DNA of 64,000 bases from Bdellovibrionales bacterium (GCA_964229765.1 CAXREJ010000051.1:52662-116661), one strand, 5' to 3'; counted from the stretch's first letter, positions 49,666 to 63,202 are shown. Made by a program: numbers and translations. The notes: generated from the letters alone by a model not told the origin.

Positions 49666-51330
49666 TTACTTCCAGTTGTCTCTAAGGCTAACAGAACGAT
49701 TAAAAACTAAATCATTAGAAGTTGAATCTTGGTCAAGACAAAAGTAACCCACGCGTTCAAACTGAAAAGATTCTCCAGGCTGTGCGTTTTTTAGCTCTGG
49801 TTCTCCGTAACAGGGATCAAGAACCTCTAACGAGTTTGGATTGAGAAATTCTAGGAAGTCTTTACCTTTATGACCTGTTGGATTGGGATCATTAAATAGA
49901 CGATCATAAATGTTAACCTTTAGAGGGACAGCTTCTTTGGCAGACACCCAATGGATAATCCCTTTAACTTTTCGGCCTTCAGGATTTTTCCCAAGAGTAT
50001 CAAGATCAACAGAAGCTTTAATTTCAACAATGTTTCCTTCATCATCTTTAATGACATCTTCACACTTGATGACATAAGAATTTCTGAGGCGAACTTCTCC
50101 ACCTGGTTTTAAGCGGAAATATTTTTTTGGAGGATCTTCCATGAAATCATCGCGATCAATCCAGATTTCATTAGACATGGGTAAATCTCTTGAGCCCATG
50201 GACTCATCAGACGGATGGTTGGGAGCCGTCAGTGTTTCATTGCGATCATAATTGATAAGAGTGAGTTTAAGGGGATTGAGTACGACCATGCGCCTCTGAG
50301 CTTTGCTATTGAGATCAGAACGTAAGCATTCCTCAAATTGACTGTAATCAATGATCGAATGGGCTTTAGAAACACCCACTTGGCGGCAAAGCTCCCTTAT
50401 GGATTCAGGAGTGTACCCACGACGTCTTAGTCCGCGCAATGTGGCCATGCGAGGATCATCCCAGCCAGAGACATGACCTTCTTCGACCAATTGCTTAAGC
50501 TTTCTTTTGGAGACAATAACATGGCTAAGGAAAAGTTTTGAGAATTCAATTTGTTTAGGAGGTTCTTGAAAATCCAATTCTTGTAAAAACCAATCGTAAA
50601 GCGGGCGGTGGTCTTCAAATTCCAAAGTACAAATGGAGTGAGTGATGTTTTCAATGGCATCAGAGATTCCATGGGTGAAATCATAAAGAGGGTAAATGCA
50701 CCATTTATCACCGGTGACAGGGTGGTGAGCATGACGTATGCGATATATGAGAGGATCACGCATATTCATATTTCCGGAGGTCATGTCGATTTTGGCCCTT
50801 AAAATATGCTCTCCATCTTTAAAGTCACCATTTTTCATTTTCTCGAAAAGTTCTAAGTTTTCTTCGACAGTGCGATCGCGAAAAGGGGAGTTCTTGCCTG
50901 GAGTATTATGATCACCTCGGTATTCTCGCACCTCTTCTTCAGAAAGAGAGTCTACATAGGCTTTGCCTTTTTTAATAAGTTGAACAGCGTAATCATAAAG
51001 TTGATCAAAATATTCCGAGGCATGACAAAGGTTATCCCACTGAAAACCGAGCCATTTTATATCGTCTTTGATGGCCTCAATGTATTCAGGGTCTTCCGAA
51101 ATGGGATTGGTGTCGTCAAAACGTAAATTGCACTGGCCCGAGTAAATTTGTTTAAGTTCAAAATTTAGGCATATTGATTTGGCATGACCAATATGGAGGT
51201 ACCCATTGGGCTCGGGCGGGAAGCGAGTGTGGACTCGTCCTGAGTTTAAACCAGCTTTCAGGTCTTGATCGATGATGTTTCGAATAAAATTCTTTGCTGG
51301 TTCTAATGTTTTTTCTTCAGCCATTGCCAT
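49666..51330 (-). CDS. glnS: Glutamine--tRNA ligase
   Basis: [17 protein letters not shown] (HIGH), VSKRKL (KMSKS-like), and [10 protein letters not shown] at the N-terminus. I start at the internal MAMAEEK. The 39-aa hydrophobic extension of the long ORF looks spurious. Confidence 0.93.
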
Positions 51331-51403
51331 CCTCCAAAGCTTTGTTTTTAGCATAAAAATTCCATTTTCACCTTTGAAAATTAATGTTATTCCAAGAATT
51401 CCT

Positions 51404-51919
51404 ATGAAAACGCAAAAAGTGATCATTTTCACCACGGGTGGAACCATTGAGAAAAGCTATAATGAGTTTGATGGCTCATTGGAAAACCGCCAGTCTCGTT
51501 TGAGAAACCGTTTGTTATCTCGATTGCGTTTGCCTCATACTGATGTGGAGCTGCATGAGCTGATGGCCAAAGACTCCCTTCATATGGATGATGAGGATCG
51601 AAAAAAAATCTGGGAGGCCATCGTCAGAGTTTTTCCTCATAAGGTTCCCATCATCGTTTTACATGGAACGGACACGATGGAAAAAACGGCTGAGTTTTGT
51701 TTTGCTCAAGATTCTGAGCCCCCTGTTCCCGTGGTATTTACTGGGGCTATGAAGCCCATGGGGTTTGAAGATTCTGATGCTCCGCAGAACTTTACGGAGG
51801 CTATGGCTGTTTGCCAGGTCATCAAGCCTGGGTTTTATGTCTCTTTTCATAATCGTGTTTTTTCGGTCCCCAGAGTCAGAAAGAACAAACAACGCCGAAC
51901 CTTTGAATCAAAGGATTAA
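51404..51919 (+). CDS. Stand-alone asparaginase/glutaminase N-terminal-domain protein (~171 aa)
   Basis: From the internal Met [19 protein letters not shown] (TGGTI nucleophile motif) and [10 protein letters not shown] (HGTDT motif). The ORF ends about where full-length type I/II asparaginases begin their C-terminal domain. Confidence 0.65.
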
Positions 51920-53908: not shown

Positions 53909-54364
53909 TTATAAAGCAACAGGTTGATTGTCATTCTGATACAATTCGTCTGGGTTGATAACGCCATCACGAATTTCATAAAATTCCTGTTCACCCAAGG
54001 CGCGTCCTTGTTCGATGGAAAACGAAATACGTTGTAACGAGTCGAGATAGCCACGAGCCGCACTACGTCTTCCCAGTGCGCTACTTCGTGAAGCAATGTC
54101 ACTTCTTACAGCAGAGCAATTGACAGATTGTCCGTTTCTAAAAACAGCTTCGCTACAGTGGTTATTGCAAACCTGAGCAAAAAGGCGATCGGACTGTTCT
54201 ACAAAATCATCTCCCCAGCGACCACTCCAATAAGCACTTTCTATAGTCCTCAGGGCTTGATTGGCCGCTTGATAGCATTGCTCAGAAGCCTGACGGGAGT
54301 CTTGTGCATTGGCATAAGAAGTCAGCAAAAGAAATAACGATAAAGTCGTTATGAGTTGGTTCAT
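53909..54364 (-). CDS. Secreted hypothetical protein
   Basis: 151 aa with signal peptide (LLLTSYANA|Q) and four Cys. No motif was recognised. Confidence 0.55.
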   Translation of the reverse strand: MNQLITTLSLFLLLTSYANAQDSRQASEQCYQAANQALRTIESAYWSGRWGDDFVEQSDRLFAQVCNNHCSEAVFRNGQSVNCSAVRSDIASRSSALGRRSAARGYLDSLQRISFSIEQGRALGEQEFYEIRDGVINPDELYQNDNQPVAL

Positions 54365-54695: not shown

Positions 54696-55832
54696 TTAGA
54701 ACTCTCTTTCTGGAAAAGCTCCGGCGGCTCCTGGGGAACTTGTTTGCTCTGAAGCTTTAATTTTAAGTCTTTTTAAATCTTCATCAAGATAACCCAAAGG
54801 GTGTCCTTTTCTTTTGGACTTAACTATAAAATATTCTAAAGCATAATAACAAGTCGAGGCCGTTTTAGAGTGGGGATAGGTCTCGATACAGCTTTTGAAA
54901 TAGTTCTCAGGGAGACCCATCATACTAAGAGAGTCGTGTCCTTCATAAATTCTACCAAGTGAGAGTAAAACCTGTGCTCTCTTCTTAGAGTCTAAGTTTT
55001 GCTTTAAAGACTTGTGAAGAACTCCAGACCAAATGACGGACTCAAGCAGATCACTGTTCTTGTTTTTTTTCTTTACGACACTAATGATTTTATCAACAGA
55101 TAAATTATCAAATTTGCCTTTTTTAAGTTGTGATAACCAAGCGTTAATTTCTTTTTTGTGCTTTGGACTGAGCTTTTCTTGATCCACTTTTATAAGCTCT
55201 TTGTAGATCAAGCTCGAGTTAAAAGAATTTAAATTTGCTAAAAGAAAAAACTGTTCGAGAGCTTTCTGTTTTAGTTCTTGTGATGAGTCCGTGCTGTTTA
55301 TTCCATTGAGAAGCTCTTGTGATGCTTTTTCAAAAGATCTTGTCGCAATATAAATTTTGGCTCTTTCAATAAAGTTAAGGTCTTTGATAATCGGTGCAAA
55401 CTGATCAGGTTTAATAAATCGGGGACCAACCTTAGAAATTAGGTGGCAACTGTTACAGTAATTTAATGAGTATTGTAGTAAGTGTCTTGAGTACTCTTTT
55501 TCTCCTACAAAAAAGCTTTCATTGGCTTTTAGAATTTGATTCTTTAAACCATTGAGACCAATTTTAAAAAGAGGGTCTTCTCCGATTAATGGTTTTGCCA
55601 AGTGACGGTCAAGGCCATTGGCTCCTTGGCTCAATTGTTTAATGCGTAATTCAATAGCCGTCTCAAAACTAGGGTCTGAAAATCTTTTTTCAGAATAGAG
55701 GTAGGGAAGTAGGTTCTCATAGGCTTTTGCCATTTGTTCCATCGAGTTTGACCAACTTGCCTGTCTGTTCGAGTTCTGGCATCCAAGGAAAAGGTTGAGC
55801 AGCAAAAAGGCTAAAACGAGTCGAAATGTCAT
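54696..55832 (-). CDS. Lipoprotein with a single CxxCH heme-c motif and TPR-like helical repeats
   Basis: Lipobox LFLG|C and CNSCH at about aa 127. The rest is helical. Confidence 0.5.
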   Translation of the reverse strand: MTFRLVLAFLLLNLFLGCQNSNRQASWSNSMEQMAKAYENLLPYLYSEKRFSDPSFETAIELRIKQLSQGANGLDRHLAKPLIGEDPLFKIGLNGLKNQILKANESFFVGEKEYSRHLLQYSLNYCNSCHLISKVGPRFIKPDQFAPIIKDLNFIERAKIYIATRSFEKASQELLNGINSTDSSQELKQKALEQFFLLANLNSFNSSLIYKELIKVDQEKLSPKHKKEINAWLSQLKKGKFDNLSVDKIISVVKKKNKNSDLLESVIWSGVLHKSLKQNLDSKKRAQVLLSLGRIYEGHDSLSMMGLPENYFKSCIETYPHSKTASTCYYALEYFIVKSKRKGHPLGYLDEDLKRLKIKASEQTSSPGAAGAFPEREF

Positions 55833-56165
55833 AATTTCTCTCCATGAGATTCATTAATGAGGTCATTCAAGGTTTATAATTGATAAACTTAAATATGGAG
55901 AGAGGCATGCCGTTTTTACATTTATGTAATATCTATAGCTCTTTACTTAATCTTGAGTTTTAAAAGATTGATCATTTTGATCCTCATTTAATATCAATTA
56001 TGGTGAGTGCACGAGCAAGTAAAAAAGAACAACCGTTATTTGTAATTTTTTCCCAACTTTTTGGTAAATTGACCTCATTTCAGAAGAATGGAATTCTCAA
56101 GTCTTCATTTCTATTGGGGAAATTTAACATAAATCCGGGGGGAGAGTTGTTGAGGAGATTGTCTG

Positions 56166-59100
56166 ATGAACTTCAGAGGGAACTTTCTTAGGGGACTTAT
56201 CGTCATATTATTGTTGCAATGGGGTTTTGTCGTTTTTGCCGACTCGGACTCTGAAGCCGATACCATTTTACAAGAATTAGTATCAGATAGTGATTTTGTT
56301 GTATCCTATATTGAAGCAATGCTTGAGTTGAGAACTGGTGTGGAGCACGAAGCTATTTCCAATGCCATTGAAATCACCAACAGAATTCCTTCAAGACAAG
56401 TTTACGAAATTTTGAAAGATCGGTTTGAAAGACTACCGGATATTGCTGATATTCTAGAGATCCCTGAGTTAAAAGAATCCATAGTCGCACTGCTAGAAGG
56501 GTTTAAGACCGTTTGTTCTCAGAGAGATCGACAGTTGTTGGAAGACTTTTCTCACTGGGCTATTTTAACATTTCAAGATCCAGCCATAGAAGTACAGTTA
56601 GATCAAGTGCGGACTGTTATCAGCGAAAGAGGGGAGCAGCCCATTGAACTCGTTGATTTAAATCGTGGCCCTTTTCAACAGGCTTTATCTGCAGCCGGTG
56701 CTCTACGTGATGAGTTAGGATCTATAGGGCTTAATCCTGCAGAACAAAACTCATCAGTTCATCAAGCAGCCTTGAGTCAGGTGGAGAGATTTAGAGAGAT
56801 ATTAGAAAGTAAAGTTGTAGGACAGCAGGATATAGTGAGTGCTTTCACAACTCTCTATTTAAAAGATCTACTTTTTGACGGCCATCGAAGACAACCTGAG
56901 CTATTTTACTTTATGGGTCTTCCTGGAAACGGTAAGGACACTCTGGCTGAAGAGTATGTCGATGCTCTTTATCAAACACGAGGGGCTCATCAGGACCATA
57001 TGTTTGCGATGAATATACGCTCTAAAGAAGAGGCCTGGAGTTATTTTGGTTCAGGCAAAGGTTATGTGGGCTCTAGTGAGTTACCAGCCTTTCTGAAATT
57101 TTTAGTGCAACACTCAGGAGGAAAATACATTTTAGCGGAAGAACAGGATGGACTCACCAAAAGGAAAATTATCGAACGTAATCCCGATTGGCGTGAAAAT
57201 GATGGACTGATTATCAATGGTCCTCATAAAGCAGTGGTCTTTGTTAATGAGGCCCATAATATACCTAAAGAAGTTAAAGACAATGTTTTAAAGCAAGCGA
57301 TTGAAAGAGGTATTTTTCCCATCACCAATCCAGGGTCCTCCCAGAATTCTGTGGAGAAAATAGAACTACCTGTCACTTTTATCTTCGCAAGTAATGAAGG
57401 TATTGACTTATTAGAACCAAGAAATCGTAATGGTACAAGAACGGGGCCCCCTCTTTCATTTGAAGATCTTATTGCAAATTATCATTTAGTGGCTGAGGAC
57501 AAAGAAATATTAAAGCAAGCCATACTAAGAACCAATGGGGGTGTTAACGATGTTTCTCGTCCGAATGCACCAGGAACTTCAGAAGAGTTTTTAAATCGAT
57601 TTCCTGATCATCGTATACATATACTAAGACCCTTTTCTCCAGAAGAGCGCTTTGAAGTAGCAAAACGTATTTTAGAAGCTCGTTTAGAAGAGTTGAGCCG
57701 AGCGAGAGGAAGTTTGGGGAATTACGAAGTACAGGTTTCTGATGAAGTGATTCGTTTTATTGCCGACTATAACGTTGTTCCTTCAGAAAATGCTCGTCCC
57801 ATAAAAGCTAGGGTTGAATCCTTTGTACTCAACAATATTCTTGAGGCCTTAAAATCTCAAAGAATAAGACCTTTAGGTGAGACACAAAGAATCGTTATTG
57901 GCTTGAGAGAGTATGAAACAGGAGTGAGAAGTCTGGTTTTCCAGGCCAGTGACCTACAAGGGGAAAACTCTTATCAATTTACTCGTCTTGTACGTGAAAC
58001 TTTAAGAGAAATTCCCAGGGCTCCTCTGTCCCAAGAAAGAATTGATGAAATTTTAGCAATGCGCGAGAAAATAACCTCCAATGTTTTTGGAGTGGAGCCC
58101 ATTGTTGATCGCCTCTTAGAAGCGGCATTAGTTTCTGAATCAGAAGCTCGTAATTCTAAAGAGTCGAGTCGTCCAGCAACGGTTATGGCTTTTCTTGGTA
58201 AATCATCCACGGGTAAAACGGAGACGGCTAAACAGTATGTTAAAGCTCGTTATGGTGAGGACTTCAAGCCAACAGTGATTGATTTTAATGGTGTGCGTAC
58301 TATCGAGGCTATGGAAGCTAAAATTATGGGGTCTTATGATGGGAATAAAAACCCCATTCCCTCTGATTTTATGAAAGCCTATGATCGCGCCAATGGCAAT
58401 ATCACATTTATCTTTGATGAAGCGGCGAATTCCCCTAAAGAACTTTTAAAAGCTCTTTACGAAGTGACTCGTGAAGCCAACGTCACAGGTTTCAGTGATG
58501 GTAAGTCTCGTCCTATGAATAATGTCACAATTATCTTAACGGGTAATGCTGGAGAACAAATTTATAATAATATTCCAGAGGGGCTTCCAAGGCTCGTTCG
58601 TGAAAGAGCCATGAATGAAGTTTTTCAAGTCTTTCTACAAAATGAAGATATCAGACATCGAATTTTAACGGAGTCTTTTCCTGAGGCTCTTTTGGCTCGT
58701 CTTGGACAAAATATTTTTCACTTTGGACCCTTGCAAGATGATGGCAAAAGACAAATTGCTCAGTTGAAATTAGAAAAAGGCTTGGAAAAATTACGTCCAA
58801 CAGCCAGTGAAAGAGGCTGGCAAGTCAGCTTTGAGTCGGAGTCGGACTTATTGGGTTTATTTGAAATGATTGAACATCAGGGCTTTAAACTGGATGAGCA
58901 AGGAGCTTCTATTGACAAATTTGTACGTGAAGCACTTATGGATAGAATTAAGTCTCGTTTGTTAAAAGAAGGAGTTCCCTCTGGAGATGTAGTTTCCATT
59001 GAGCTTAAAGAAGATAGTAAAACTATTAACGACAGAGGCACTCGATATTTATTTAGAGAAATGGTTCTTCATCACAATGATCGAGAATTTTCCATTGAAA

Positions 59101-60230
59101 TACCATTAGGTGTCGATCAACCAAGGATTGGTAAAACGGATCACGATCGAATTCTTACGGCTTATCACGAAGCCGGTCATGAACTTGTTTCCAGTGTGTA
59201 CTTTGGTGATAAAGAAAAACCAGTTTATTTATCTATTATTGAAGGAGTGGCTCTTATAGGTTCAACTCTTGTGCCTTATAATGGTGTTCGTAAGGGTGAA
59301 GTGGAAATCGAGTCTCGAAACAATAAAGAAGTTGTTTTGAGAGAGGCCGCTATACTGGCTGCTGGATATGTCGCTCAACAATTAATTACTTTGGGAGCCA
59401 GAGATGATGGCGGGAAAAGTAATGACATGCTGAGGGCTACAGGGTTAATTCGCAATGCCATTCTAAGGCAAGGGTTAAGTCAACGTTGGGGAGTAAGGGC
59501 GATACCTGAAGGTCTTTCCAATGAGGACTATATTGCTAAAGAACTCTCTACCAGTGAAAAAGAAGAGTTGAATCGTTTAACTTCTGAGTGGTTGCAGGTT
59601 GCAGAGGATTTAGCTCGTGAAGCTATCTGGGTTAATATGGATAAACTTTTTGTTCATATGTCTAAGGCGATTGCTCAAGAAGGACAAATTTATGGTGATC
59701 AGATTCTTGAGCTTTATGAACAGTATGGTGTGTTGACTGAAAGAGATGAGCAACGTTACCAAGAAGTTGTCGAACAAATCTATGAAGTCACAAACTTTAT
59801 TGATGAAAGTATTGAAAAAGTGGGAGATCGTTTTTATCAACGCTATACTGAAGATAATTTTTCTTGGGATAAAGCAGAAGAAGCCTTTGCGTTCTTGAGT
59901 CGAAGAAATAGTGGACTTGTTAATATGTTTAATCCACTTTACCGCAGTTCTTGGGAGTCAATGTCTGATACACTTAAGATGGTTGTGGCTTCTCGCTTAA
60001 GTTCTCATATTCAATATCGTCGTCGAGATGCTCAAATAGCATCAGACACTCTTCTGCCAGAGAGGGTGGCTAATATTGAAGATATAATCGCTATGGAAAG
60101 AGATGCGAGAACCTCAAGAGTGACTGAACTTGAAAGGTTTAATATTATAAGATCCAGTGACACCACAAGAGGGGCTGCTGAAAGCTCCTCGATGGCACCT
60201 GAAGTTTTAACTTGTTCACGAATTTTTTAA
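56166..60230 (+). CDS. Giant fusion protein: signal-peptide-like N-terminus, two ClpA/B-D2-like AAA+ modules, and a C-terminal FtsH-type (M41) zinc metallopeptidase
   Basis: 1354 aa with GAGGAG 8 nt before the ATG. Module 1 (aa ~205-560): VVGQQDIV, GLPGNGKD, GSGKGYVGSSE, VVFVNEAH. Module 2 (aa ~630-935): GKSSTGKT, TFIFDEA. Peptidase (aa ~990-1200): AYHEAGHELV (59166-59180), AAGYVAQQL, GGKSNDMLRAT. Confidence 0.7.
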   Translation: MNFRGNFLRGLIVILLLQWGFVVFADSDSEADTILQELVSDSDFVVSYIEAMLELRTGVEHEAISNAIEITNRIPSRQVYEILKDRFERLPDIADILEIPELKESIVALLEGFKTVCSQRDRQLLEDFSHWAILTFQDPAIEVQLDQVRTVISERGEQPIELVDLNRGPFQQALSAAGALRDELGSIGLNPAEQNSSVHQAALSQVERFREILESKVVGQQDIVSAFTTLYLKDLLFDGHRRQPELFYFMGLPGNGKDTLAEEYVDALYQTRGAHQDHMFAMNIRSKEEAWSYFGSGKGYVGSSELPAFLKFLVQHSGGKYILAEEQDGLTKRKIIERNPDWRENDGLIINGPHKAVVFVNEAHNIPKEVKDNVLKQAIERGIFPITNPGSSQNSVEKIELPVTFIFASNEGIDLLEPRNRNGTRTGPPLSFEDLIANYHLVAEDKEILKQAILRTNGGVNDVSRPNAPGTSEEFLNRFPDHRIHILRPFSPEERFEVAKRILEARLEELSRARGSLGNYEVQVSDEVIRFIADYNVVPSENARPIKARVESFVLNNILEALKSQRIRPLGETQRIVIGLREYETGVRSLVFQASDLQGENSYQFTRLVRETLREIPRAPLSQERIDEILAMREKITSNVFGVEPIVDRLLEAALVSESEARNSKESSRPATVMAFLGKSSTGKTETAKQYVKARYGEDFKPTVIDFNGVRTIEAMEAKIMGSYDGNKNPIPSDFMKAYDRANGNITFIFDEAANSPKELLKALYEVTREANVTGFSDGKSRPMNNVTIILTGNAGEQIYNNIPEGLPRLVRERAMNEVFQVFLQNEDIRHRILTESFPEALLARLGQNIFHFGPLQDDGKRQIAQLKLEKGLEKLRPTASERGWQVSFESESDLLGLFEMIEHQGFKLDEQGASIDKFVREALMDRIKSRLLKEGVPSGDVVSIELKEDSKTINDRGTRYLFREMVLHHNDREFSIEIPLGVDQPRIGKTDHDRILTAYHEAGHELVSSVYFGDKEKPVYLSIIEGVALIGSTLVPYNGVRKGEVEIESRNNKEVVLREAAILAAGYVAQQLITLGARDDGGKSNDMLRATGLIRNAILRQGLSQRWGVRAIPEGLSNEDYIAKELSTSEKEELNRLTSEWLQVAEDLAREAIWVNMDKLFVHMSKAIAQEGQIYGDQILELYEQYGVLTERDEQRYQEVVEQIYEVTNFIDESIEKVGDRFYQRYTEDNFSWDKAEEAFAFLSRRNSGLVNMFNPLYRSSWESMSDTLKMVVASRLSSHIQYRRRDAQIASDTLLPERVANIEDIIAMERDARTSRVTELERFNIIRSSDTTRGAAESSSMAPEVLTCSRIF

Positions 60231-60313: not shown

Positions 60314-61126
60314 CTACATAATAATATTGCAAGTTAGGCGAGTTAAGACTTCAGTTAAGGCATTCTCAAGTCCTTGGGAGTCTTCAGCTATTGATAAAAA
60401 ACCATCAGGAGTTATAACTTCTTGTTCGTAGAAGTCACTCACTTCAGGGTAGTCCATGGCTGTTTGATTAACACCGCCTTGATTAAGAGGTGAGAAGATT
60501 CCACTTGAACGAGGTTGTTCCACATCGAAAAAATTATTGAGATTAATGGGTACCCCATAAACTTGCACCCCCGTATCGTAGTTGTTTTGTCTTAAGGATC
60601 TTAAGTTTTCCAAATTAGGGTAGAGTCTTGAATCGTATCCGTCACCAGAAATAAGAATGGATTGTTGTCCCATTGCGGTGCTATTTTCATGGATGTATTC
60701 ACTGGAAAAATTGAGTGCACTATAAAGTTCAGTTGTTTCACCAACATTTCCGACACCATAACTATTGTCGCGAGCCATTTGAGTAAAAATATTTGCCAAG
60801 TTTTCAATATCTTCACGAGTTTCCATTACTTTAAATGTAGACTCAATTCGAGGAACACTTCCCCAGAAGATGACAGCAATTTCTGTACATGTGCATTCTA
60901 ATAAGTTGTTTACAACTTCAGGGTTACGTAAAGAATTGGCATAACCTTGTAATTGCACGCTTCTTTCCTGAGTGTTCATTGAACCGGAGAGGTCCATTGA
61001 TAAGACAACAGAACTTTCTGCACGTCCACGGGATCTTTCGCAAACAGTCGCTTGCCCGATGGAATGAGTTAACAAGAGGCCTAAAAATATGAAAGCTTTG
61101 ATTTTAGTAGACAATATTTCCTCCAA
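60314..61126 (-). CDS. Secreted vWA-fold protein, DUF1194-like
   Basis: Signal peptide (LLLTHSIGQA|T). MIDAS-type MDLSGSMN, IAVIFWGS, ILISGDGYD and VYGVPIN follow the remembered DUF1194 order (DVSGS ... WSG ... DVSGDG ... INGLPI). Confidence 0.65.
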   Translation of the reverse strand: MEEILSTKIKAFIFLGLLLTHSIGQATVCERSRGRAESSVVLSMDLSGSMNTQERSVQLQGYANSLRNPEVVNNLLECTCTEIAVIFWGSVPRIESTFKVMETREDIENLANIFTQMARDNSYGVGNVGETTELYSALNFSSEYIHENSTAMGQQSILISGDGYDSRLYPNLENLRSLRQNNYDTGVQVYGVPINLNNFFDVEQPRSSGIFSPLNQGGVNQTAMDYPEVSDFYEQEVITPDGFLSIAEDSQGLENALTEVLTRLTCNIIM

Positions 61127-61437: not shown

Positions 61438-61630
61438 TATAAATTCAATGAGCTATTTAAAATACGTAATGAAGTGGTTGTGATAAGTGGAGTAATTTTA
61501 ATATCGGGGTCGTTTGTAAATTTTTTCAAAAATTTAGTAAATCATACATTATCATTTAGATTAATGATAGCTCAGAAGAATTTTAGTATAAGTCTTGTAA
61601 AATTAAACCAGTTTGAAAAAAGGAAAGTCT

Positions 61631-63202
61631 ATGAAAAATCTCCTACTCGCTTGTTCAGTCCTTGCTTCGTTTAATATTTGTTGGGCTGAAACTAATAATG
61701 GTGTTTTTCTTCCAGGAGAAAATCCACCCACTTATGATCAACCTTGGACTCATCAACAGAATTCAATTTCTGCGAGTGATTCCCAAGCGCAAGGCGGTGA
61801 TCGTTCGATTCCTCCGACCAAAGGAGTGATTCATGTGAGGCGAGATGGTGAAGGTTCAGAGGCCTATGGCGACTACTTAAAGTGTTTAGAAGAGCTAAGA
61901 GAGAGAGTTCCAAACCCTCGTCATAGAGATTACTTATGCGATCGTAAGCATCTTCAACCAGAAGAAGACCTCAATTACTATGAGATCAACTATACTGGAA
62001 TAAATGTTATTGAAGCGGATACAGATGAGAGACCTATTTTTGTTCCTGGTAGAAGAGGTATTGGATTCTTGCCAGTCACTAATGCTAATGAAGATGTTCT
62101 TCAAAGACCTGTTATATATCGTTCTTATGATTTGACTCAGTCCAATCAAAATCATCTCGTTGTGCAAATTCCTATTCTTCAATTAAAACAAAATGGATTA
62201 CTCAGCCAGCCGGTGATAGTGGCAGAATATTTAGTTAACGAAAGTTCCGCTGTTGATCAAATTGCAAGTCAACTGGGTGTTAACTCTAGTGATGTTGCAC
62301 AGGTTATAGCGGCAACAGGTTCAGCTCTTGCACTGGTTGAAGGGGGAACTTCTTTATTAATTCCAGAGTTACAAATGTTTACAAATATTGATCCTGAAAA
62401 TGAGCGCCCTATTGATTTCGGTGGTTATGGTATTCCAGGATTTCGTTGGGTTTCTTTGCAAGAGTCAATTGATCCAGAAAGAGAATGGCCTATTCTTGGT
62501 GGTTCTCAAGGTATTGGAGTGATGATTACGATTCCTGGAATTGGTCCCGGCCGTGATCGTGAAATTGATTTGCCGCAAATGGTTTCCGCTTTTCATCCAG
62601 TAGGGACTACGAATGTAGGTTACCCTTATCCCGTCATCAATGTTCCTCCTGCTACAATGGCTTCGTTAAAAGATTGGAGTGAAACATTTCCACCTCCAGG
62701 GCAAACAGATGTACCGCAAGCGCCAGCTGTTGCTATGACTCAAGATTGGGGTGAGACTTATCCTCCTCCTGGACAGACAGATGTTCCTATGTTTCAGTCT
62801 TTAAGAGAAATGGCTCGCAACCTATCAGCTCCTGAGTTAGAAATTCATACGGTTCATTTGACCACAGCGGCTGTCTTAGGTTCATTAACAATTTTGGCTT
62901 ACCGTGTATTAGGGATTGGTGGAAGAGCACGTGCTCTTGCAGCGGTTGTCCCTCCTCAAATTATATTAGATGCCACAGGAAGAGCGGGTTATAGAGTTCC
63001 TGCCCACGAAACTTATTCAGAAGAAGAAGCTTTGGCTATGGCTCGTCAGATCGATGCTATGAGTAACGATGAGTTAGAGGACTTCATGAATACGGTGGAT
63101 CCTGAGTTGATCGAATACATGGAAGTTATTGATTACTATGTTCGTCAGGCCAGAGGTCGTGAGTTTCAACAGTGGTGTCCAGACGTCAATCAATGTAGCT
63201 AA
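61631..63202 (+). CDS. Single-pass membrane protein with a large extracytoplasmic domain (hypothetical)
   Basis: The ATG at 61631 after AAAGGAAAG is preferred to the TTG at 61613. Signal peptide MKNLLLACSVLASFNICWA|E, a TM helix (TAAVLGSLTILAYRVLGIGG) near aa 425, a ~90-aa acidic tail and a tandem DW.ET.PPPGQTDVP repeat. Confidence 0.7.
   Translation: MKNLLLACSVLASFNICWAETNNGVFLPGENPPTYDQPWTHQQNSISASDSQAQGGDRSIPPTKGVIHVRRDGEGSEAYGDYLKCLEELRERVPNPRHRDYLCDRKHLQPEEDLNYYEINYTGINVIEADTDERPIFVPGRRGIGFLPVTNANEDVLQRPVIYRSYDLTQSNQNHLVVQIPILQLKQNGLLSQPVIVAEYLVNESSAVDQIASQLGVNSSDVAQVIAATGSALALVEGGTSLLIPELQMFTNIDPENERPIDFGGYGIPGFRWVSLQESIDPEREWPILGGSQGIGVMITIPGIGPGRDREIDLPQMVSAFHPVGTTNVGYPYPVINVPPATMASLKDWSETFPPPGQTDVPQAPAVAMTQDWGETYPPPGQTDVPMFQSLREMARNLSAPELEIHTVHLTTAAVLGSLTILAYRVLGIGGRARALAAVVPPQIILDATGRAGYRVPAHETYSEEEALAMARQIDAMSNDELEDFMNTVDPELIEYMEVIDYYVRQARGREFQQWCPDVNQCS

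What the first reader, a model, noticed from the sequence alone, without database searches (positions are those of the whole stretch)
56166..60230. Undescribed architecture: signal-peptide-like N-terminus, degenerate ClpB-D2-like AAA+, canonical ClpB-D2-like AAA+, FtsH (M41) peptidase
Seen:
- N-terminus: MNFRGNFLRGLIVILLLQWGFVVFA|DSDSE has the n/h/c layout of a Sec signal peptide or signal anchor.
- aa ~205-560: the ClpA/B D2 layout (ILESKVVGQQDIV lead-in, P-loop, GSGKGYVGSSE, Walker B, ASNEG). However, the P-loop is GLPGNGKD (Asp replaces Thr/Ser) and the Walker B is VVFVNEAH (Asn replaces Asp). This module is probably non-hydrolytic.
- aa ~630-935: the same layout repeats with intact GKSSTGKT and FIFDEA.
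- aa ~990-1200: AYHEAGHELV (59166-59180), AAGYVAQQL and GGKSNDMLRATG are present. FtsH has HEAGHA, GGRxAEE and GAxNDLxxAT at these points.

Established: FtsH couples one classic-clade AAA module to M41 behind two TM helices. Clp/Hsp100 D2 modules are never covalently fused to a peptidase in the textbook families (ClpXP, ClpAP, Lon, FtsH, HslUV).

Inference: this would be a new self-compartmentalising AAA+ protease type. If the N-terminus really directs export, it would be an ATP-dependent machine outside the predator cytoplasm, for example delivered into prey.
Basis: partly seen in the sequence, partly recalled or inferred. Interest (0 to 1): 0.8.

Follow-up and report, generated by a model that had tools for sequence, protein, structure and literature searches.

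The report
Exported tandem Clp-type AAA+ / FtsH-peptidase fusion
This is a real 1354-residue gene, found so far only in predatory Bdellovibrionota. It joins a signal peptide, two ClpB-D2-type ATPase modules and an FtsH-type zinc peptidase in one chain, which I found neither described in the papers searched nor specifically named in annotations, and which looks built to work outside the cell that makes it.

Summary
**Observation.** Confirmed. window:56166-60230(+) is one intact ORF. It reads: Sec-type signal peptide, helical-repeat N-domain, ClpB-D2-like module 1, ClpB-D2-like module 2, M41 peptidase, family-specific helical domain, flexible tail.

**Active sites.**
- Module 1 has a fixed non-canonical site: GK-D-T and hhhh-N-E.
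- Module 2 has fully canonical catalytic residues.
- The M41 peptidase has HEAGH plus Asp1087, all invariant.

**Not a chimera.** About 140 full-length relatives share the same order of parts. All named records are Bdellovibrionota. The gene was found in 32 of 401 sampled genomes of the phylum, as a single copy with no conserved neighbours.

- Module 1 is a conserved variant, not decay. It carries the only canonical GYVG pore loop.
- A sister group has three AAA+ modules and the same ends.
- Nearly all members end in a solitary Cys tag, C-x-x-hydrophobic-[L/F]. Unrelated signal-peptide proteins of the same genome and of other Bdellovibrionota carry the same tag, so it looks like a portable sorting or modification signal.

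**Best reading.** A ring-forming, ATP-driven unfoldase-protease that is exported. Delivery into prey, where ATP exists, is inference only.

**Status.** I found no paper or specific annotation describing it. It is a new variant of the AAA+ protease kind. Interest 0.74.

The parts
56152..56157 (+). Shine-Dalgarno GAGGAG, 8 nt before the ATG
   Evidence: Read from the sequence. It supports the start at 56166 and so the hydrophobic N-terminus.
56166..56240 (+). Signal-peptide-like N-terminus, aa 1-25: n-region with R4 and R9, a 15-residue h-region, then V-F-A followed by an acidic stretch
   Evidence: It is the only strongly hydrophobic segment: 19-residue-window hydropathy score (KD19) 2.16, next best 1.50 inside M41. 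Family-wide, 127/150 have such a core, 114/127 have a positive N-flank, and 118/127 have an AxA-like site at median position 26. SignalP was not available.
56241..56765 (+). N-terminal all-helical repeat domain, aa 26 to about 200
   Evidence: AF2 model of 26-610 has pLDDT 92.3 and about 9 helices with no strands. No Pfam family matches. There is a weak profile match to a designed helical repeat protein.
56778..57995 (+). AAA+ module 1, ClpB-D2-type, with D2-small domain and terminal beta element (aa 205-610)
   Evidence: Profile vs PDB hits ClpB D2 at E 2e-26. Foldseek finds ClpC, ClpB and Skd3. Pfam ClpB_D2-small matches 497-573.
56916..56942 (+). Module 1 Walker A variant G-L-P-G-N-G-K-D-T (K257, D258)
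   Evidence: K257 is present in 127/139 and D258 in 122/139.
57060..57071 (+). Module 1 pore loop G-Y-V-G (aa 299-302)
   Evidence: G299 138/139, Y or F 118/139, G302 123/139. This is the ClpB-D2-type pore loop.
57234..57257 (+). Module 1 Walker B variant V-V-F-V-N-E-A-H (N361, E362)
   Evidence: N361 and E362 are each present in 115/139. The same N-E occurs in the equivalent module of 10/11 three-module relatives.
57996..59045 (+). AAA+ module 2, ClpB-D2-type, canonical catalytic residues (aa 611-960)
   Evidence: ClpV, ClpB and ClpA models cover 613-952. Hsp104/ClpB D2 match among solved structures.
58197..58220 (+). Module 2 Walker A G-K-S-S-T-G-K-T (K684)
   Evidence: K684 is present in 139/139.
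58407..58424 (+). Module 2 Walker B F-I-F-D-E-A (D751, E752)
   Evidence: E752 139/139 and D751 126/139.
58698..58700 (+). Module 2 putative arginine finger R845
   Evidence: R845 is present in 139/139. Its role is assigned by position in the ClpB-D2 alignment.
59118..59705 (+). Peptidase M41 domain (aa about 985-1180)
   Evidence: Pfam match at E 6e-10. AF2 pLDDT 92. Foldseek finds FtsH, YME1 and AFG3L2, with TM 0.79-0.81 on the isolated FtsH protease domain 2di4.
59166..59180 (+). Zinc motif H-E-A-G-H (H1001, E1002, H1005)
   Evidence: All three residues are present in 139/139.
59424..59426 (+). D1087, at the position of FtsH's third zinc ligand (the Asp of the N-D motif)
   Evidence: Present in 138/139. 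The assignment rests on motif alignment to FtsH and on my own knowledge of FtsH structures.
59706..60122 (+). Family-specific helical domain packed on M41 (aa 1181-1319)
   Evidence: pLDDT mostly 93-98 (lowest 10-residue block 83), within one globule of pTM 0.88. Not covered by FtsH matches. No Pfam family. Residues 1285-1289 lie in the predicted subunit interface.
60123..60227 (+). Flexible low-complexity tail (aa 1320-1354)
   Evidence: pLDDT 50-72.
60213..60227 (+). C-terminal tag C-S-R-I-F (C1350)
   Evidence: In 147/151 superfamily members the last Cys lies 4-15 residues from the end in most (0-22 overall), within [S/T]-C-x-x-hydrophobic-[L/F]. The same ending occurs on unrelated proteins, most with signal-peptide-like N-termini.

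Best explanation
**What it is.** The gene encodes a self-contained AAA+ protease of a kind not found described in the papers and annotations searched. After a Sec-type signal peptide, the mature chain has these parts:
- a helical-repeat N-domain, probably for substrate or partner binding;
- two stacked ClpB-D2-type AAA+ modules;
- an FtsH-type (M41) zinc peptidase;
- a family-specific helical domain;
- a flexible tail ending in a Cys tag.

**How it most likely works.** By homology it assembles head-to-tail into a ring, most likely a hexamer. Substrate would be threaded through two ATPase tiers into the peptidase chamber.

**The two tiers differ.**
- Tier 1 holds the canonical GYVG pore loop. 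Its Mg site is fixed in a non-canonical form: GK-D in Walker A and N-E in Walker B.
- Tier 2 holds a fully canonical hydrolysis site. It has no aromatic pore loop and no sensor-2 arginine.

**Shown here:** the domain identities, the residue conservation, and the family-wide signal-peptide layout and tag.

**Inferred:**
- ring assembly;
- ATP-driven unfolding;
- export across the inner membrane;
- most speculatively, action where ATP is available outside the producer. For a predatory bacterium that means inside or against the prey cell, digesting folded prey proteins;
- a role for the C-terminal tag as a shared sorting or modification signal of a set of exported proteins, rather than a protease-specific regulator.
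For: **Domains.** Searches identify the two D2-type modules and the M41 peptidase.

**Catalytic residues under strict conservation in 139 homologues.**
- K684, E752, N794, R845, H1001, E1002 and H1005 are 100% conserved; D1087 is in 138/139.
- In module 1, K257, E362, N410, R478 and R544 are each in 115-127 of 139.

**Pore loop.** Module 1 G-[Y/F]-[V/I]-G is conserved. The module 2 equivalent is polar.

**Ring assembly.**
- A conserved arginine at the Arg-finger position makes sense only if subunits assemble (inference from AAA+ knowledge).
- Complex prediction was run on three copies of residues 982-1309. The score was 0.67 against a best control of 0.00.
- That mark was reached by 20 of 30 proteins solved as pairs of one chain and by 1 of 23 solved as single chains.
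- The runs agree in at least 93% of contacts and the partner pLDDT is at least 84.
- The middle copy uses two different surfaces, as in a ring.
- This pass may come from the model's memory of FtsH hexamers.

**Export.**
- There is a single N-terminal hydrophobic segment and no second one.
- The n-region is positive, the span is short, an AxA-like site is present, and the following flank is on average acidic across the family.
- Three-module relatives have the same N-terminal layout.
- In B. bacteriovorus a Sec signal peptide alone carries NanoLuc into the supernatant (PMC12622784).

**Tag shared with other signal-peptide-like proteins.**
- In the own genome, 10 ORFs end in C..[LIVM]F, against 0-2 for seven permuted patterns.
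- The tag is conserved in a 66%-identical homologue of an unrelated 518-aa protein.
- It is conserved in homologues of an unrelated 1502-aa protein in 11 genomes.
- It occurs on further unrelated proteins next to the fusion gene in four loci.

**Lineage.** All named records are Bdellovibrionota.
Against: - No bacterial AAA+ protease is known to work outside the cytoplasm, and the periplasm is generally held to lack ATP (my own knowledge). The predicted location therefore conflicts with the strictly conserved ATPase site unless the enzyme reaches an ATP-containing compartment.
- No dedicated signal-peptide predictor was available; topology rests on rule-based counts.
- No route across the outer membrane or into prey is identified, and there are no conserved neighbours.
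- No RNA or protein evidence of expression exists.
- The family was not found in most genomes of the phylum: 369 of 401 sampled lacked it, including all 26 of one well-sampled genus. It is therefore not a core predation function.
- The arrangement is odd for a translocase. The aromatic pore loop sits in the tier with the altered Mg site, and the canonical ATPase tier has no aromatic pore loop.
Confidence: 0.55

Rival explanations
1. Cytoplasmic, membrane-tethered quality-control protease. The N-terminal hydrophobic segment would be an uncleaved anchor, or non-functional in export. The ATPase and peptidase would then face the producer's cytoplasm and act like a second, Clp-flavoured FtsH.
For: - The ATPase site of module 2 is 100% conserved and ATP is cytoplasmic.
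- Every characterised bacterial AAA+ protease is cytoplasmic (my own knowledge).
- Low Cys content does not tell the two locations apart. The same genome's FtsH (0.30%) and ClpB (0.23%) are also Cys-poor.
Against: - By the positive-inside rule, charge is on the wrong side for an N-out/C-in anchor. The N-flank is positive in 114/127 and the flank after the segment has a mean net charge of -1.2 (-5 in this protein).
- The uncharged span has a median of 19 residues including the c-region, and an AxA-like site is present in 118/127.
- There is no second membrane segment.
- The genome already has a canonical FtsH.
- The C-terminal tag is shared with other signal-peptide proteins, including a 5'-nucleotidase-like one.
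Confidence: 0.18
2. Exported, but ATP-independent. The protein would act in the producer's periplasm or on its surface as a zinc protease or chaperone, with the AAA+ modules serving as scaffold or nucleotide-free holdase.
For: - The signal-peptide evidence is as above.
- Module 1 has a non-canonical Mg site, and module 2 lacks a sensor-2 arginine (S915 in 136/139).
Against: - Walker A Lys, Walker B Glu, sensor-1 Asn and the Arg at the finger position of module 2 are invariant in 139 sequences that are only 25-60% identical overall. This is hard to explain without nucleotide hydrolysis.
- In module 1, all residues expected near the gamma-phosphate are also kept.
Confidence: 0.12
3. The C-terminal Cys is a protease-specific cysteine switch that caps the M41 zinc until activation, rather than a general tag.
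For: - A solitary invariant Cys sits on a flexible tail next to a zinc peptidase.
- E. coli FtsH is known to trim its own C-terminus (my own knowledge).
Against: - The same ending occurs on unrelated proteins with no peptidase domain.
- AF2 does not dock the tail; pLDDT there is 50-57.
Confidence: 0.08

Closest known systems
FtsH / peptidase family M41 (including YME1 and AFG3L2)
   Same: - Same peptidase fold, HExxH and the conserved Asp at the third-ligand position.
- The ATPase is fused upstream in the same chain.
- A head-to-tail protease-domain interface is predicted.
   Different: - FtsH has one classic-clade AAA module and two membrane helices.
- This protein has two ClpB-D2-type modules, one cleavable-looking signal peptide and no membrane span.
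- It also has an extra helical domain and a Cys-tagged tail after M41.
Class I Clp/Hsp100 (ClpB, Hsp104, ClpA, ClpC)
   Same: - Two AAA+ tiers.
- D2 hallmarks are present: the V-x-G-Q lead-in, the GYVG pore loop, the ARP sensor-2 motif (N-A-R-P here against ClpB's G-A-R-P) and the D2-small domain.
   Different: - Both tiers here are D2-like; there is no D1 and no M-domain.
- The peptidase is covalently attached instead of a separate ClpP.
- Three-module relatives do keep a D1-like module.
Lon
   Same: Same design principle: an HCLR-clade AAA+ module fused to its peptidase in one chain (my own knowledge).
   Different: Lon has one AAA+ module and a Ser-Lys peptidase. No Lon domain was detected here.
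Torsins
   Same: - D2-like AAA+ behind a signal peptide.
- A non-canonical residue follows the Walker A Lys: torsin has GK-N (my own knowledge) and this protein has GK-D.
- The Pfam Torsin model touches residues 205-277.
   Different: Torsins are single-module and eukaryotic, have no peptidase, and borrow their arginine finger from partners. Here R478 is conserved.
Plasmodium HSP101 of the PTEX translocon
   Same: A ClpB-type ATPase with a signal peptide that works outside the producer's plasma membrane, in a host-derived compartment (my own knowledge). It is among the profile hits (6e10).
   Different: HSP101 has a D1-D2 architecture and no peptidase. It feeds a membrane pore rather than a protease chamber.
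Skd3 / human CLPB
   Same: A helical-repeat N-domain followed by a D2-like module, resembling residues 26-610 here (Foldseek TM 0.56-0.59 on the target).
   Different: Skd3 has a single module and no peptidase, and it is a mitochondrial disaggregase.

Membership tests
Peptidase family M41 (peptidase domain) | HExxH zinc motif plus a downstream Asp ligand, in the M41 fold | tested here: met
   Pfam 39.6 bits against a cut-off of 29.9. H1001, E1002 and H1005 are 139/139 and D1087 is 138/139. Foldseek TM 0.79-0.81 to 2di4.
FtsH (whole protein) | One classic-clade AAA module directly upstream of M41 | tested here: not met
   The upstream modules match ClpB/ClpV/ClpA D2 models, not the FtsH AAA module. 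The FtsH model aligns only over residues 990-1179.
FtsH (whole protein) | Two N-terminal membrane helices flanking a periplasmic domain | tested here: not met
   There is only one hydrophobic segment, of signal-peptide length.
Clp/Hsp100 D2-type AAA+ module | D2 nucleotide-binding domain plus D2-small domain with a sensor-2 motif | tested here: met
   Module 1: profile hit to ClpB D2 at E 2e-26, the N-A-R-P motif, and ClpB_D2-small above its cut-off. Module 2: ClpV/ClpB/ClpA D2 over 613-952, but its sensor-2 Arg is replaced by Ser.
Class I Clp/Hsp100 (ClpA/B/C) | A D1 module N-terminal to D2 | tested here: not met
   Residues 26-200 are all-helical with no P-loop. D1-like modules occur only in the three-module relatives.
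Class I Clp/Hsp100 (ClpA/C/X type) | ClpP-docking IGF/IGL loop | not tested
   Not examined. With a fused peptidase, docking to ClpP is not expected.
Torsin | A single D2-like AAA+ module with no arginine finger of its own | tested here: not met
   There are two modules. R478 and R845 are conserved. The Torsin Pfam score of 20.5 is below the cut-off of 27.
Sec-exported proteins with a type I signal peptide | Positive n-region, short h-region, small residues at -3/-1, cleavage by signal peptidase I | tested here: inconclusive
   The layout is met by rule-based counts across the family. No trained predictor was available and there is no experiment. Cleavage is not testable here.
Functional AAA+ ATPase (module 1) | Walker A GK[S/T] and Walker B hhhhDE | tested here: not met
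   GK-D (122/139) and hhhh-N-E (115/139). Whether the site still hydrolyses ATP cannot be told from sequence.

The most novel reading that the evidence does not exclude
Predatory Bdellovibrionota export an ATP-driven unfoldase-protease that runs on the prey's ATP to dismantle folded prey proteins. It would belong to a set of effectors marked by a previously unrecognised C-terminal Cys tag (C-x-x-hydrophobic-[L/F]) that directs their sorting, modification or delivery.
Probability: 0.3. Interest if true: 0.9.

Novelty: new variant of a known kind. Interest (0 to 1): 0.74.

Why it matters
- Bacterial energy-dependent proteolysis is taught as a handful of cytoplasmic machines: ClpXP, ClpAP/CP, HslUV, Lon, FtsH and, in some phyla, the proteasome.
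- This family adds a new wiring, with two Clp-D2 tiers fused to an FtsH peptidase.
- If the signal peptide works as it looks, it is the first candidate for an ATP-dependent protease acting outside the bacterial cytoplasm.
- That would bear on how predators digest native prey proteins.
- It would also offer a natural test of two mechanistic questions:
  - how two AAA+ tiers share work when the pore loop and the canonical hydrolysis site sit in different tiers;
  - what a Walker A GK-D / Walker B N-E site does.
- The shared C-terminal Cys tag may define a new sorting or modification pathway and a ready-made list of candidate predation effectors.

Tried and rejected
- **Conserved gene neighbours.** None of the window's neighbours recurs in 49 related loci. 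Clustering of flanking ORFs gave only an ABC-F ATPase in 6 loci at varying positions.
- **Promoter and terminator scans.** No better than shuffles.
- **Cys depletion as a sign of export.** Not discriminating.
- **Charge-swap covariation in module 1.** The idea was Walker A T-to-D paired with Walker B D-to-N. It looked good within the two-module family: D/N in 114/139, and T or S paired with D/E in 6 of 7. It is not robust, because three-module relatives combine canonical GK[S/T] with N-E in 10 of 11. The Asn is ancestral and the Asp is a later change.
- **Cysteine switch.** See the rival explanations. Disfavoured.
- **Recent tandem duplication of the two modules.** They share almost no pairwise similarity.
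- **Expression.** No RNA holder is listed. The four holding runs are DNA from one marine metagenome study, and two may be the source of the assembly.
- **Phage origin, following an ESM Atlas lead.**
  - tblastn against GenBank phages found only ClpB/ClpA-like or FtsH-like pieces, never both in one place.
  - The IMG/VR scan found nothing.
  - A 'shorter proteins' search gave only fragments of the same family.
- **Literature.** Six searches found nothing describing the architecture or the tag. Two papers were checked without result.

Full report
**1.
- window:56166-60230(+) is one open frame of 1354 codons.
- A GAGGAG ribosome-binding site sits 8 nt before the ATG.
HEAGH is encoded at 59166-59180.
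- GC content is even (0.38-0.41) through the gene and its flanks.
- Contigs from two sequencing runs break at different places. They bridge each other's breaks and both domain junctions without a mismatch. Those runs may be the source of the assembly, so independent support comes from the homologues.

**2. Domain identities.**
- Pfam gives Peptidase_M41 (992-1179, above cut-off), ClpB_D2-small (497-573, above cut-off) and weak Torsin and AAA_2 hits.
- NCBIfam aligns ClpV, ClpB and ClpA D2 regions to 613-952 and FtsH to 990-1179.
- The PDB sequence search gives Hsp104/ClpB D2 and FtsH.
- A family profile of residues 26-610 hits T. thermophilus ClpB at E 2e-26 over its D2 nucleotide-binding part and D2-small domain. 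Both modules are therefore D2-like.
- AlphaFold2 models built with family alignments are confident: 26-610 has pLDDT 92.3, and 960-1354 has pLDDT 92.0 and pTM 0.88.
- Residues 26-200 form an all-helical repeat domain with no family assignment.
- Residues 1181-1319 form a helical domain that packs on M41 and is not matched by FtsH structures.
- Residues 1320-1354 are modelled as flexible.

**3. The family.**
- Word-indexed and exhaustive searches find about 140 full-length relatives of 1150-1660 residues at 25-60% identity. All share the same order of parts.
- Source names are only 'ClpA', 'AAA family ATPase' or 'hypothetical'.
- Every named genome record is Bdellovibrionota: Bdellovibrionales, Pseudobdellovibrionaceae, Bdellovibrionaceae, Bacteriovoracaceae or Oligoflexia.
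- In a sample of 401 genomes of the phylum it occurs in 32, spanning 23 of 203 genera. It is single-copy in all but one genome and patchy, and was not found in 26 genomes of one genus.
- The window's genome also has an ordinary FtsH.
- The organism comes from a marine metagenome.
- No neighbour is conserved.

**4. A wider superfamily.**
- More distant relatives (about 25% identity) carry three AAA+ modules (D1-like, D2, D2-like) before M41. They have the same signal-peptide-like start and the same Cys-tagged end.
- Full-length matches to such a protein occur in roughly 40 of the 401 sampled genomes.
- The window protein aligns colinearly with the last two modules and M41 of these proteins. Its module 1 therefore corresponds to their middle module, and the D1 is replaced by the helical N-domain.

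**5. Active sites (139 sequences).**

| Part | Residues and conservation |
|---|---|
| M41 | H1001, E1002, H1005 invariant; D1087 in 138/139 |
| Module 2 | K684, E752, N794, R845 invariant; D751 in 126 |
| Module 2, sensor-2 position | Ser (136) instead of Arg |
| Module 1, Walker A | K257 in 127; followed by Asp (122) instead of Thr/Ser |
| Module 1, Walker B | Asn-Glu (115 each) instead of Asp-Glu |
| Module 1, other | Sensor-1 N410 (122), R478 (121), sensor-2 R544 (122) kept |

- The residues aligned to the ClpB pore loop in module 2 are polar.
- Module 1 also carries the only canonical pore loop, G-[Y/F]-[V/I]-G.
- Module 1 is thus a fixed variant, not a decayed site. Whether it hydrolyses ATP cannot be decided from sequence.
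- The Walker B Asn is already present in the three-module relatives with a normal Walker A. It is therefore older than the Walker A Asp.

**6. Assembly.**
- An invariant arginine at the finger position implies subunit contacts.
- A three-copy prediction of residues 982-1309 scored 0.67 against a best control of 0.00.
- That mark was reached by 20 of 30 proteins solved as pairs of one chain and by 1 of 23 solved as single chains.
- The runs agree in at least 93% of contacts and the partner pLDDT is at least 84.
- The middle copy uses two different faces, as expected for a ring. Residues 1285-1289 of the family-specific domain lie in the interface.
- Because FtsH hexamers are solved, this pass may reflect likeness rather than independent evidence.

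**7. Topology.**
- The only strongly hydrophobic stretch is residues 7-25.
- Across 150 superfamily members, 127 have such a core.
- Of those 127:
  - the preceding flank is positively charged in 114;
  - the uncharged span has a median of 19 residues;
  - an AxA-like site follows in 118, at median position 26;
  - the next 15 residues are on average acidic.
- This is the layout of a cleaved Sec signal peptide, not of an N-out anchor.
- There is no twin-arginine motif.
- In B. bacteriovorus, a Sec signal peptide alone takes a reporter to the culture supernatant (PMC12622784).
- The conflict with the need for ATP is the central open question.
- Precedents for Clp-type ATPases behind signal peptides exist only in eukaryotes, namely torsins and Plasmodium HSP101 (my own knowledge).

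**8. The C-terminal tag.**
- In 147 of 151 superfamily members the last Cys lies within 25 residues of the end, mostly 4-15 (0-22 overall). It sits in [S/T]-C-x-x-hydrophobic-[L/F], after a Ser/Ala/Gly/Pro-rich linker.
- Cys makes up only 0.16% of residues, so about half of all cysteines in the family are this one.
- The tag is not specific to the protease.
- In the window's genome, 10 ORFs end in C..[LIVM]F, against 0-2 for seven permuted patterns.
  - Most have a single Cys and a signal-peptide-like start.
  - They include proteins of 1502, 518, 475, 290, 282 and 264 aa, and a 435-aa 5'-nucleotidase-like protein.
- The tag is kept in a 66%-identical homologue of the 518-aa protein.
- It is kept in homologues of the 1502-aa protein in 11 genomes.
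- It appears on unrelated 459-468-aa and 264-aa signal-peptide proteins encoded immediately upstream of the fusion gene in four other loci.
- I read it as a portable sorting or modification signal. Its chemistry is unknown.

**9. Comparison and novelty.**
- The peptidase domain is a member of family M41.
- The whole protein is not an FtsH: it has the wrong AAA clade and no membrane helices.
- It is not a class I Clp/Hsp100: it has no D1 and a fused peptidase.
- It works, by inference, like Lon or FtsH (ATPase and peptidase in one chain) but with two Clp-D2 tiers.
- No paper in the searchable library describes it.
- ESM Atlas lists unnamed clusters of 581-722 aa with M41 plus ClpB_D2-small, partly labelled viral or Bacteroidota. 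I could not retrieve or confirm them. The D2-M41 junction may therefore not be unique to this phylum.
- Verdict: a real, conserved, undescribed architecture. It is a new variant of the AAA+ protease kind, and its predicted extracytoplasmic location makes it unusually interesting.

Noticed in passing
window:60213-60227; own genome G000 C53:111968-116476, C53:110467-111774, C44:61652-63208, C26:3613-5040, C33:1644-2516, C43:64145-64993, C7:39281-40075, C21:25790-26287: A shared C-terminal ending, C-[R/S/G/K]-x-[L/I]-F, occurs on about nine otherwise unrelated proteins of the genome. Most have signal-peptide-like starts and a single Cys. There are 10 such ORFs against 0-2 for permuted patterns. 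This is a candidate new sorting or modification tag.
   Followed up: partly
L044:1727-3133, L051:5766-7172, L045:5761-7140, L003:302-1096: In four other Bdellovibrionota loci, the gene immediately upstream of the fusion gene on the same strand encodes a signal-peptide protein of unknown family with the same Cys tag. The L003 protein is distantly related to the window genome's tagged 290-aa protein (24.7% identity, E 1e-7).
   Followed up: partly
P0176, P0184, P0187, P0196, P0204, P0205, P0207, P0208; loci L082-L085: A sister group has three AAA+ modules (D1-like, D2, D2-like) before M41, with the same signal-peptide-like start and Cys-tagged tail. The Walker A of all three modules is canonical, but the middle module already has Walker B N-E. 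Full-length matches occur in roughly 40 of 401 sampled genomes of the phylum, and some genomes hold both forms.
   Followed up: partly
ESM Atlas clusters: Unnamed clusters of 581-722 aa carry Peptidase_M41 together with ClpB_D2-small, with a few members labelled Uroviricota or Bacteroidota. They may be single-module D2-M41 fusions outside this phylum. I could not retrieve them to test this.
   Followed up: partly
window:48229-49323(-), 53909-54364(-), 54696-55832(-), 60314-61126(-), 61613-63202(+): The gene sits among other predicted exported proteins: a PAD_porph-type deiminase, a 151-aa protein, a 378-aa protein with a lipobox-like L-G-C, a DUF1194/vWA protein, and a 529-aa protein with no family. 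None carries the Cys tag and none is conserved next to the fusion elsewhere.
   Followed up: partly
window:51272-51919(+) and 49666-51447(-): A short ORF matches only the N-terminal domain of asparaginase (E 9e-26). Its longest form overlaps the over-extended start of the glutaminyl-tRNA synthetase ORF. The true GlnRS start is probably the internal Met before A-E-E-K-T-L-E-P.
   Followed up: no
Residue 683 is Gly, and the Walker A lysine is K684.
   Followed up: yes
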